Origin: the human T2T-CHM13v2.0 reference genome, Homo sapiens
DNA: 64,000 nt
Reading direction: 5' to 3'
Assembly (NCBI GenBank): GCA_009914755.4
Contig: CP068257.2
Span: forward strand, 25,920,001-25,984,000
Made by a program: the position numbers and the translations under genes. Shown here one piece after another: positions 19,141 through 20,681 of the stretch (its first letter is position 1; each line of letters begins with the position of its first letter). Under the pieces are notes generated by a model. The model ran no database searches. It saw only the letters and a program-made list of their open reading frames with translations, and had not been told where the DNA came from.

Positions 19141-19352
19141 CATTAGCCACAGTGGCTGACAAATACTTTTAATGAAATGAAACTATATTTCTGACATGAA
19201 TCACACAGTGGTTATCTGATATTATTATAAGTTTACCACATCCATTAGATGAAATATGACCCATTCATTCTTTGGCTAAATGCACCATTCTTTGTCTATA
19301 GAGAAAATGTCATATCTGAAAGTTTCACGTCCTAGTTTACACCACTTGACTT

Positions 19353-19963
19353 TTTTTTTCCTTTCCAACTTTTATTTCTTTTTCTTGCCTTATTGTGCTT
19401 GTCTTGTTCGATTTTCTTTCTTTTTTTTTTATTATACTTTAAGTTCTAGGGTACATGTGCACATTGTGCAGGTTAGTTTACATGTGGATCCCTTCCTTAC
19501 ACCTTATACAAAAATCAATTCAAGATGGATTAAAGACTTAAACGTTAGAGCTAAAACCATAAAAACCCTAGAAGAAAACCTAGGCATTACCATTCAGGAC
19601 ATAGGCATGGGCAAGGACTTCATGTCTAAAACACCAAAAGCAATGGCAACAAAAGCCAAAATTGACAAATGGGATCTAATTAAACTAAAGAGCTTCTGCA
19701 CAGCAAAAGAAACTACCATCAGAATGAACAGGCAACCTACAAAATGGGAGAAAATTTTCACAACCTACTCATCTGACAAAGGGCTAATATCCAGAATCTA
19801 CAATGAACTCAAACAAATTTACAAGAAAAAAACAAACAACCCCATCAAAAAGTGGGCGAAGGACATGAACAGACACTTCTCAAAAGAAGACATTTATTCA
19901 GCCAAAAAACACATGAAAAAATGCTCATCATCACTGGCCATCAGAGAAATGCAAATCAAAACC
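19353..19963 (-). mobile_element. LINE-1 insertion with 5' inversion (twin-priming signature)
   Basis: Three parts: an 84-bp degenerate T-rich tail (19353-19436) that is the poly-A in reverse complement; ~52 bp of L1 3' end in antisense (19437-19488, 'ttattatactttaagttctagggtacatgtgcacattgtgcaggttagtt'); and ~475 bp of L1 ORF2 in sense orientation (19489-19963), ~98% identical to 15766-16250. The element is flanked by ACCACTTGACTT at 19341-19352 and 19964-19975. Confidence 0.85.
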
Positions 19964-20681
19964 ACCACTTGACTTATAAATGACATTTTACTTAGTCGTG
20001 TTTATTGTGAGTCATCTATATCAAAGAACTATTGTTATAAGGTGTTTTACACATTCCTATCGCACGTAAAAAGAAGAAGTGGAGTTAGAATGCATTCCAT
20101 GAGTATGCCTCGCTTTTAAGTATGTAATTATGAGCTGCAAACCATGAAACACTGTCTATGACACATCTTTAATGATACATTTTCAGAGCAGTACATCATA
20201 GCAACTGTGAGAAGTTAAAGCTTTAAATGAAGTCAATTCTATAGGATTCTTCTTTATATTAGGCTTTGATTGTCAATCTATGTATGCAACTTAAATACTA
20301 TATATACATACATATAAAAACATACACCAACTATACAAATTAGAACATGTATATAAACTATATAACTGTATTTAGTATTAAAGTTATTTACACTTTGACA
20401 GCAAATTGTTTTTAAACATATGTGAGGTTATATCTGTTTCTTTGTATATTAATTAATATGTGTGTATAGATATATTATTTTAAAATACAGATATATATGT
20501 GTGTATATATTTTTTTCTTTAAATTTGGTTGGAAAAACTCTAGAAATATGTATTTTAAGATCAGAGCATAAAGAATTTCTATAATTTAAAATATTACAAA
20601 TAAATAGCATCTGTAGCTTTGCTGGATATGACTAAACATTTCAATAACTCTGTTTTTGTATGATTCTATAAAAAATAATTA

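What the first reader, a model, noticed from the sequence alone, without database searches (positions are those of the whole stretch)
19341..19975. Twin-primed (5'-inverted) L1 insertion with a perfect 12-bp target-site duplication
Seen directly: ACCACTTGACTT at 19341-19352 and again at 19964-19975 brackets a 611-bp insert. From left to right the insert is an 84-bp degenerate T-rich stretch (a poly-A tail read in antisense), ~52 bp of L1 3' terminus in antisense ('ttattatactttaagttctagggtacatgtgcacattgtgcaggttagtt'), then ~475 bp of L1 ORF2 in sense orientation that is ~98% identical to 15766-16250 of the L1 upstream. A 3' segment and an upstream segment in opposite orientations inside one TSD is the architecture produced by twin priming during target-primed reverse transcription. 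The sequence between the two segments, corresponding to ~50-720 bp from the L1 3' end, is absent, which is a larger junction deletion than usual. The chimeric sense segment creates the 230-aa ORF at 19280-19972, which is an artefact and not a gene.
Basis: partly seen in the sequence, partly recalled or inferred. Interest (0 to 1): 0.5.

Follow-up and report, generated by a model that had tools for sequence, protein, structure and literature searches.

The report
Twin-primed (5'-inverted) L1 insertion
This is one ordinary LINE-1 retrotransposon insertion in which two cDNAs were primed from the two cut DNA ends, leaving a short tail-end piece and an upstream ORF2 piece in opposite orientations between one 13-bp target-site duplication; it is a textbook kind of event and not a gene.

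Summary
The flanking direct repeat is 13 bp (CACCACTTGACTT, 19340-19352 and 19963-19975) and encloses 610 bp. The insert contains three parts:
- a 77-nt T-rich tail (19353-19429);
- the last ~54-60 nt of an L1 3'UTR in antisense (19430 to 19483/19489);
- 481 nt of L1 ORF2 in sense (19485-19965). This is 470/481 identical to the neighbouring L1 at 15763-16243 and encodes ORF2p residues 946-1109.

About 653 nt of L1 between the two pieces is missing. The architecture and a 3-bp L1/target microhomology (CAC) at the internally primed end fit twin priming; the TG overlap at the inversion junction is only 0-2 bp and inconclusive.

Two refinements. First, the "degenerate poly-A" is too complex (25 of 77 non-A next to L1 sequence only ~1% diverged). 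It reads better as A9 + 61 nt of non-L1 sequence carrying AATAAA + A7, a candidate 3' transduction that I could not prove. Second, large gaps between the two cDNAs are common in published sets.

[quoted passage not shown] The empty orthologous site could not be tested with these tools. The 230-aa ORF is a read-through artefact. Low interest; a known kind of event.

The parts
19340..19352 (.). Left copy of the target-site duplication, CACCACTTGACTT. Its 3' end on the + strand (…GACTT/ATAAATG in the reconstructed target) is the inferred first nick and the primer for cDNA 1.
   Evidence: The motif ACTT/AT is read from the sequence.
19353..19359 (-). Terminal A7 of the inserted RNA, seen as T7 on the + strand, directly abutting the TSD.
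19360..19420 (-). 61-nt A-rich but complex non-L1 sequence (36 A, 14 G, 6 C, 5 T). It carries AATAAA (19371-19376 on the + strand as TTTATT) ending 11 nt before the terminal A7. Candidate 3' transduction.
   Evidence: composition, position of the signal; no tandem repeat; no other copy in the window; too many non-A for decay.
19421..19429 (-). A9 run immediately after the L1 3' terminus. It is either the genomic tail of the source element or the start of the poly(A).
19430..19483 (-). Non-inverted cDNA: the last ~54 nt of the L1 3'UTR, possibly extending to 19489 with mismatches. It reads antisense on the + strand and contains a 1-bp insertion at 19479.
   Evidence: Alignment to 16894-16952 of the upstream L1 and to three other L1 3' ends.
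19479..19489 (.). Inversion junction zone. 19484 (G) matches neither segment. TG at 19485-19486 can belong to both (0-2 bp microhomology, or 5 bp with one mismatch).
   Evidence: plus reading of the sequence.
19485..19965 (+). Internally primed ('inverted') cDNA: L1 ORF2 codons for ORF2p residues ~946-1109, sense on the + strand. Its last three bases, CAC (19963-19965), overlap the TSD.
   Evidence: 97.7% to 15763-16243; (PDB 8sxt ORF2p 946-1109, E = 1.3e-97).
19963..19975 (.). Right copy of the target-site duplication, CACCACTTGACTT.
19280..19972 (+). 230-aa read-through ORF. It starts in the left flank, crosses the TSD, tail and antisense L1, and enters the ORF2 frame at aa ~66. Its stop is the TGA inside the right TSD. 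Artefact.
   Evidence: No Pfam family; not on record as a called gene product.
14537..16964 (+). Neighbouring 5'-truncated young L1, used here as the internal L1 reference. It has an RT domain, an ORF2 C-terminal part, a 3'UTR and an A-run. It is not part of the insertion.
   Evidence: RVT_1, E = 3e-32.

Best explanation
This is a single L1 retrotransposition event resolved by twin priming. Steps 1-3 are inferred from the established model and from the anatomy shown here; they were not observed.

1. **First nick and cDNA 1.** L1 endonuclease nicked the window's + strand at …CACTTGACTT/ATAAATG…. The exposed …CTT-3' paired with the RNA's poly(A) and primed cDNA 1. On the + strand this reads T7, then the complement of 61 nt of non-L1 sequence, then T9, then the complement of the last ~54-60 nt of the L1 3'UTR. 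Synthesis stopped there, only ~135 nt into the RNA.

2. **Second nick and cDNA 2.** The other strand was cut 10-13 nt away. Its 3' end, …AAGTCAAGTGGTG-3', paired through GTG with CAC in the same RNA about 709 nt upstream of the L1 3' end (ORF2 codons ~1108-1109). It primed cDNA 2, which covers 478-481 nt (ORF2p residues ~946-1109).

3. **Joining.** The two cDNA 3' ends were joined at 19479-19489 with little or no microhomology. The 653 nt of RNA between the two primed regions was never copied. Fill-in produced the 13-bp TSD.

The RNA probably carried a short 3' transduction, having read through the L1 poly(A) signal to a downstream AATAAA. The product is a dead 610-bp fragment, and the 230-aa ORF is an accident of read-through.
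For: **TSD.**
- An exact 13-bp repeat sits precisely at both ends of the L1-derived block.
- No repeat brackets either segment alone.

**Orientation and order.**
- The tail and the 3'UTR end are in one orientation, next to the left TSD.
- The ORF2 piece, from further upstream in L1, is in the other orientation, next to the right TSD.

**Junctions.**
- L1 homology runs 3 bp (CAC, 19963-19965) into the right TSD copy.
- Kojima 2010 found microhomology in 95% of 5'-inverted L1s, and 2-5 bp in ~70% (PMC2912911).
- TG at 19485-19486 is shared by both segments at the internal junction.

**Same source.**
- The 3' piece shares young-type sites (ACTAACCTGCACAATG) with the neighbouring L1, but it is too short to place independently.
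- The ORF2 piece has only ~4-5 private changes in 481 nt.

**Frequency.**
- 5' inversion is found in 18-31% of recent L1 insertions.

**Tail.**
- 25 of 77 positions are non-A. The probability is below 1e-18 even at 3% divergence.
- There is no tandem repeat.
- The layout A9 + 61 nt + AATAAA + 11 nt + A7 is that of a 3' transduction.
Against: - The cleavage site ACTT/AT is not one of the canonical TTTT/A-type motifs. Only the TT/A core matches; canonical motifs were seen at 63-70% of insertions in PMC12016303.
- The 653-nt gap and the ~54-60-nt non-inverted L1 piece are at the extreme end. The median germline non-inverted cDNA is 571 bp, and 46% of cases have the cDNAs within 20 bp.
- With so large a gap, one RNA cannot be told from two.
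- Junction microhomology is at most 2 bp, and the last ~10 nt of the antisense piece align imperfectly (1 insertion, 2 mismatches).
- The orthologous empty site was not available.
- For the transduction reading, no source locus was found, and AATAAA placed 8-30 nt before the end arises in 14% of shuffles of this A-rich sequence.
Confidence: 0.82

Rival explanations
1. Dual priming or two templates. Target-primed reverse transcription (TPRT) from both nicked strands happened as above, but on two different L1 RNA molecules. One was annealed by its poly(A) to the bottom strand. The other was annealed internally to the top-strand overhang.
For: The 653-nt gap means nothing physically links the two cDNAs to one RNA. 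Meyer et al. propose 'dual priming' as indistinguishable from twin priming for such loci. The non-inverted piece is too short for a firm subfamily comparison.
Against: It needs a second RNA at the same site. The 3' piece shares young-type sites with the neighbouring L1, and the ORF2 piece has few private changes, but the 54-60 nt 3' piece is too short to place independently. Meyer's dual priming has the second RNA annealing by its poly(A), whereas here the second priming is internal, in ORF2.
Confidence: 0.08
2. Post-insertion rearrangement. A conventional 5'-truncated antisense L1 of ~1.2 kb was inserted and later suffered an internal inversion plus a 653-bp deletion.
For: The net sequence content (two L1 pieces, one TSD) could in principle arise this way.
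Against: One inversion breakpoint would have to coincide exactly with the L1/TSD boundary at 19962-19965, and the inverted piece would have to end in microhomology with the target. No inverted repeats that could mediate such an inversion flank the segment.
Confidence: 0.03
3. Two independent or nested L1 insertions. A short antisense L1 3' end with its tail landed next to, or inside, a pre-existing sense L1 ORF2 fragment.
For: The window is very L1-rich, with nested repeats common.
Against: The sense fragment has no 3' end, no poly(A) and no TSD of its own. The antisense piece has no TSD of its own either: the sequence to its right is ORF2, not a copy of CACCACTTGACTT. The only repeat pair brackets both pieces together.
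Confidence: 0.02
4. DNA-level copy of the neighbouring L1 (15763-16243), made by gene conversion or template switching during repair.
For: The neighbour, 3.7 kb upstream and in the same orientation, is the best match in the window at 97.7%.
Against: Of the 11 differences, at about five the insert keeps the state of older L1 copies while the neighbour is derived (19537, 19656, 19791, 19872, 19908). At 19858 the polarity is ambiguous. The insert therefore does not descend from the neighbour. The TSD, tail and 3'UTR end are unexplained by this route.
Confidence: 0.01

Closest known systems
Classical twin-primed (5'-inverted) L1 insertions (Ostertag & Kazazian 2001 model, as summarised in PMC2912911 and PMC12016303)
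   Same: - One TSD around two L1 pieces in opposite orientation.
- The poly(A)-bearing 3' piece sits at the endonuclease-nick side.
- The inverted piece comes from further upstream in L1.
- There is microhomology where the top-strand overhang primed (3 bp here).
- The TSD length of 13 bp equals the reported median.
   Different: - The non-inverted L1 portion is very short (~54-60 nt, against a germline median of 571 bp).
- The two cDNAs are 653 nt apart on the template, whereas 46% of cases lie within 20 bp or overlap.
- The cleavage motif is non-canonical (ACTT/AT).
[quoted passage not shown]
   Same: - Viewed with the long L1 piece in sense, there is a T-rich stretch between the 5' TSD and a 3'-truncated L1.
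- The endonuclease-like site is on the poly(T) side.
- There is microhomology at the other end and little at the internal junction.
- Insert size (610 bp) and TSD length (13 bp) lie within their ranges (99-4697 bp; 7-20 bp).
   Different: - In their 39 loci the first cDNA never left the poly(A): no inverted L1 3' sequence was detectable, and the gap was 20 bp or less by design. Here 54-60 nt of L1 3'UTR is present, so this locus bridges their class and the classical one.
- Their poly(T)s were 14-39 bp and 96% pure. This tail is 77 nt and 32% non-T.
   Same: The layout is L1 3' end, a short A-run, unique non-L1 sequence, AATAAA, ~11 nt, a terminal poly(A), then the TSD.
   Different: The source locus was not identified, so this is architecture only. 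The unique part is short (61 nt) and A-rich, so an unusually heterogeneous tail cannot be excluded.

Membership tests
Twin-primed (5'-inverted) L1 insertion | A single target-site duplication encloses both L1 segments, and neither segment has a TSD of its own. | tested here: met
   13-bp exact repeat at 19340-19352 and 19963-19975. 0.02 matches of the 12-mer are expected. No other boundary repeat was found.
Twin-primed (5'-inverted) L1 insertion | Two segments of L1 lie in opposite orientations. The tail-bearing 3' segment is one. The other derives from further 5' in the element and abuts the opposite TSD copy by its 3'-most L1 position. | tested here: met
   Antisense 3'UTR end at 19430-19483/89. 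Sense ORF2 at 19485-19965, whose L1-3'-most base is next to the right TSD.
Twin-primed (5'-inverted) L1 insertion | Microhomology between the top-strand target overhang and the L1 RNA at the internal priming site. | tested here: met
   CAC at 19963-19965 is both L1 (16241-16243 of the neighbour) and TSD. The chance of 3 bp or more is about 1/64.
Twin-primed (5'-inverted) L1 insertion | Microhomology at the inversion junction. This is frequent but not obligatory. | tested here: inconclusive
   TG (19485-19486) is shared only if 19484 is counted as a mismatch. Otherwise there is 0 bp of microhomology and 1 extra nucleotide.
Twin-primed (5'-inverted) L1 insertion | First-strand nick at an L1 endonuclease consensus (5'-TTTT/A-3'). 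| tested here: inconclusive
   The site is ACTT/AT. The TT/A core is present, but it is not among TTTT/A, TTTT/G or TTTC/A (sequence; motifs as).
Twin-primed (5'-inverted) L1 insertion | An orthologous empty site holds one copy of the duplicated sequence. | not testable with these tools
   Exact-pattern scans for the empty site, the left flank plus TSD, and the TSD plus right flank found nothing in the genome, metagenome and viral collections respectively. No primate genomes are available.
LINE-1 (L1) ORF2 sequence | Significant similarity to L1 ORF2p in the reading frame of the segment. | tested here: met
   aa 66-229 of the ORF match ORF2p 946-1109 of PDB 8sxt/8uw3, E = 1.3e-97. 94% identity to the neighbour's ORF2 remnant. 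The neighbour carries RVT_1.
L1 3' transduction | L1 3' end, then an A-run, non-L1 sequence, a poly(A) signal, a second poly(A) and the TSD. | tested here: met
   A9 + 61 nt + AATAAA 11 nt before A7 + TSD. Not a tandem repeat. 25 of 77 non-A is incompatible with decay at ~1-3% divergence.
L1 3' transduction | The transduced sequence is found directly 3' of a source L1 elsewhere in the genome. | not testable with these tools
   It is not in the window. A 24-mer of the core is absent from the metagenome, genome and viral collections.
Meyer 2010 poly(T)-headed L1 loci | The poly(T) directly abuts (20 bp or less) the sense L1, with no detectable inverted L1 3' sequence. | tested here: not met
   54-60 nt of inverted L1 3'UTR lies between the tail and the sense L1. 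The locus works like that class but is intermediate to the classical form.

The most novel reading that the evidence does not exclude
The inserted RNA was a 3'-transducing L1 transcript, and its first cDNA aborted only ~135 nt in while a second primer started 709 nt upstream of the L1 end. If so, the 61-nt tag at 19360-19420 would name the source element. It would also give a rare means of testing whether both cDNAs of a wide-gap inversion came from one RNA (twin priming) or two (dual priming).
Probability: 0.5. Interest if true: 0.2.

Novelty: already known. Interest (0 to 1): 0.1.

Why it matters
It matters little beyond correct annotation. 5'-inverted L1s make up roughly a fifth to a third of recent L1 insertions, and the short-non-inverted-portion variant has been described. 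The locus is a clean worked example: all three junctions are readable, and it sits between the classical form and the poly(T)-headed form. The possible 3' transduction tag could identify its progenitor. The practical point is that the 230-aa ORF should not be called a gene, and that the two L1 fragments here should be joined as one event when counting or dating insertions.

Tried and rejected
**External searches, all empty.**
- I looked for the exact 230-aa product in the assembly collection, to get orthologous contigs. It is not on record.
- I ran exact-pattern scans in three collections: metagenome, prokaryotic genome and viral.
- The patterns were the reconstructed empty site, the left flank plus TSD, the TSD plus right flank, and a 24-mer of the 61-nt tail core.
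- All returned zero. These collections do not hold this primate locus, so neither the empty-site test nor the source-locus test could be done.

**Paralogue of the flanks.** I looked inside the window for a paralogue that spans the insertion point. There is none; only an Alu-like fragment at ~19035-19135 matches elsewhere.

**Family searches.**
- Pfam gave no family for the 230-aa ORF or for the neighbour's 578-aa ORF. ORF2 identity was instead shown against solved ORF2p structures.
- Rfam found nothing in the window.
- Ostertag & Kazazian 2001 (PMC311219) is not held, so the model is cited through later open papers.

**Readings rejected.**
- The tail as a decayed poly(A) or as a microsatellite.
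- The sense piece as a copy of the neighbouring L1.
- Nested independent insertions.

Full report
**1. What is in the sequence**

The 12-mer ACCACTTGACTT occurs exactly twice in the 64-kb window, at 19341-19352 and 19964-19975. 0.02 matches are expected, and none of 100 dinucleotide-preserving shuffles gave two. The repeat finder extends it by one base to CACCACTTGACTT, at 19340-19352 and 19963-19975. It encloses 610 bp (19353-19962). No other direct repeat sits at any internal boundary of the insert.

**2. Identity of the pieces**

BLASTN of the region against the window and a local alignment place the two L1 pieces.

- **Sense piece.** 19485-19965 aligns to 15763-16243 of the L1 lying 3.7 kb upstream, without gaps, 470/481 identical (97.7%).
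- **Antisense piece.** 19489..19413, reverse-complemented, aligns to 16894-16968 of the same element. That is its 3' terminus plus A-run (91%, one 1-bp insertion in the insert).

That neighbour is a 5'-truncated young L1 (about 14537-16964).

- It has an ORF with an RVT_1 domain (E = 3e-32).
- It has a 578-aa ORF2 remnant.
- It ends in …GTATAATAATA + A-run.

The 230-aa ORF that covers the sense piece matches solved human L1 ORF2p structures (8sxt, 8uw3) over ORF2p residues 946-1109 of 1275, E = 1.3e-97. It is 94% identical to the neighbour's ORF2 remnant. From residue 1109 to the ORF2 stop is 166 codons. That places the stop at 16742-16744 of the neighbour and leaves a 208-nt 3'UTR, as expected for L1.

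In L1 terms the insert therefore holds two things:
- ORF2 codons ~946-1109 in one orientation;
- only the last ~54-60 nt of the 3'UTR, plus a tail, in the other.

The 653 nt between them (neighbour 16244-16896, i.e. ~57-709 nt from the L1 3' end) is absent. The tail is 77 nt (19353-19429), the antisense L1 piece 54-60 nt, and the sense piece 478-481 nt.

**3. The three junctions**

*(a) Tail side.* The left TSD copy ends …GACTT and is followed directly by T7. In the reconstructed target the same TT is followed by ATAAATG. The inferred first nick is therefore 5'-ACTT/ATAA-3' on the + strand. It has the TT/A core of the L1 endonuclease preference but is not a canonical TTTT/A site.

*(b) Internally primed side.* L1 homology runs to 19965, three bases (CAC) into the right TSD copy. 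The 3' end of the opposite target strand (…AAGTCAAGTGGTG-3') could thus pair by GTG with CAC in the L1 RNA. Kojima (PMC2912911) found microhomology at this junction in 95% of 605 5'-inverted L1s, and 2-5 bp in about 70%.

*(c) Inversion junction.*
- The antisense piece matches L1 cleanly to 19478, has an extra T at 19479, and matches again at 19480-19483.
- 19484 (G) matches neither piece, and the sense piece starts at 19485.
- If 19484 is treated as a substitution, TG (19485-19486) is shared by both pieces. A 5-bp overlap (19485-19489) is possible with one mismatch.
- The junction is therefore somewhere in 19479-19489, with 0-2 bp of exact microhomology.

**4. Mechanism**

The layout is TSD, then tail, then L1 3' end in one orientation, then more-upstream L1 in the other orientation with its 3'-most base against the second TSD copy. 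This is what twin priming predicts, as described in PMC2912911 and PMC2837659.

- cDNA 1 is primed by the nicked bottom strand on the poly(A).
- cDNA 2 is primed by the top-strand overhang annealed internally on the same RNA.
- The two cDNA 3' ends are then joined.

Here cDNA 1 stopped after only ~135 nt (tail plus ~54-60 nt of L1), and cDNA 2 started 709 nt upstream of the L1 end and ran 478-481 nt. These steps are inferred from the anatomy, not observed.

**5. How unusual it is**

5' inversion is seen in 18-22% of polymorphic or somatic L1s (PMC12016303) and in ~31% of human- or chimpanzee-specific L1s.

In 287 inverted insertions, only 46% had the two cDNAs within 20 bp on the template. Gaps are therefore common, although 653 nt is probably towards the large end; the paper's text does not give the distribution.

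The non-inverted piece is far below the germline median of 571 bp. Meyer et al. 2010 (PMC2837659) described 39 primate loci in which the first cDNA never left the poly(A). [quoted passage not shown] Their screen required 20 bp or less between the poly(T) and the L1. The present locus, with 54-60 nt of L1 3'UTR, lies between that class and the classical one.

**6. The tail is probably not a decayed poly(A)**

Read in the L1 sense, the tail is A9, then GAAAGAAAATCGAACAAGACAAGCACAATAAGGCAAGAAAAAGAAATAAAAGTTGGAAAGG (61 nt), then A7, then the TSD.

- 25 of 77 positions are non-A.
- The adjacent ORF2 piece shows only ~4-5 private substitutions in 481 nt when polarised against older L1 copies in the window.
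- The probability of 25 or more changes in 77 is below 1e-18 even at 3% divergence.
- Tandem Repeats Finder reports no array there, so it is not a tail-derived microsatellite.
- An AATAAA hexamer ends 11 nt before the terminal A7.

L1 end, short A-run, unique sequence, AATAAA, poly(A), TSD is the standard picture of a 3' transduction.

There are caveats. The hexamer placement arises in 14% of shuffles of this A-rich sequence, and no source copy could be sought. I put this reading at about 0.5-0.6.

**7. Rivals**

- **Two RNAs ('dual priming').** This cannot be excluded, because the 653-nt gap leaves no physical link between the cDNAs. The 3' piece shares young-type sites with the neighbouring L1 (ACTAACCTGCACAATG), and the ORF2 piece has few private changes. 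The 3' piece is too short to settle the matter.
- **Post-insertion inversion plus deletion.** A breakpoint would have to fall exactly on the L1/TSD boundary.
- **Nested independent insertions.** Neither piece has its own TSD, and the sense piece has no 3' end or tail.
- **DNA-level copy of the neighbouring L1.** At about five of the 11 differing sites the insert keeps the ancestral state while the neighbour is derived.

**8. The ORF**

The ORF at 19280-19972 (230 aa) starts at an ATG in the unique left flank. It reads through the TSD, the T-rich tail (giving an F/L-rich stretch) and the antisense 3'UTR. It enters the ORF2 frame at about residue 66 and stops at the TGA inside the right TSD. It has no Pfam family and is not on record as a called gene product.

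**9. What could not be done**

The decisive empty-site comparison and the search for the source of the 61-nt tag both need primate genomes. Exact-pattern scans of the metagenome, prokaryotic-genome and viral collections all returned nothing. No paralogue of the flanks spans the insertion point within the window.

**10. Verdict**

The twin-priming interpretation is supported (confidence ~0.8). It carries the corrections above on the TSD, the junction position, the nature of the tail and the frequency of wide gaps. It is a known kind of event and of low interest.

Noticed in passing
window 19360-19420: A 61-nt complex A-rich sequence lies between an A9 run and the terminal A7 of the insert's tail, with AATAAA 11 nt before the A7. 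It has the layout of an L1 3' transduction and could tag the source element.
   Followed up: partly
window 14537-16964: A neighbouring 5'-truncated young L1 on the + strand, with an RVT_1 ORF at 14609-15184 and a 578-aa ORF2 remnant at 15120-16856. That remnant reads past the normal ORF2 stop, consistent with a frameshift near 16700. I saw no obvious TSD at its ends (…CACCAGAAGTTCTTCTCAAT / A-run GAAACACACCTGC).
   Followed up: partly
window 12581-13139: A long degenerate (TAGAGA)n simple repeat, ~95 copies at 68% match. It explains the strong local GC and AT skew and the spurious minus-strand ORFs at 12318-13281.
   Followed up: partly
window 31045-31170: A 41-bp unit repeated 3.1 times at 97% identity, adjoining and overlapping the start of an L1 ORF2 C-terminal/3' fragment (31137-31667). 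It looks like a recent local tandem duplication.
   Followed up: no
window ~38500-45500 (- strand): Older antisense L1 sequence that looks near full-length. An 80-aa ORF at 43879-44121 (-) resembles ORF1p (my reading, not tool-tested). A GC-rich block (0.48-0.58) at 44250-45500 may be its 5'UTR. An Alu (~45620-45910) and another antisense L1 3' part (45950-47343) follow.
   Followed up: partly
window 54900-55300: This is the only stretch in the window with GC of at least 0.5 and CpG observed/expected of at least 0.6. It coincides with an Alu copy (54918-55215) that is 89% identical to the one at 23837-24152, so it is probably a fairly young Alu rather than a CpG island.
   Followed up: no
window 19035-19135: An (ATTTT)n simple repeat followed by a short Alu-like fragment lies ~200 bp left of the insertion site. 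It is unrelated to the insertion.
   Followed up: no
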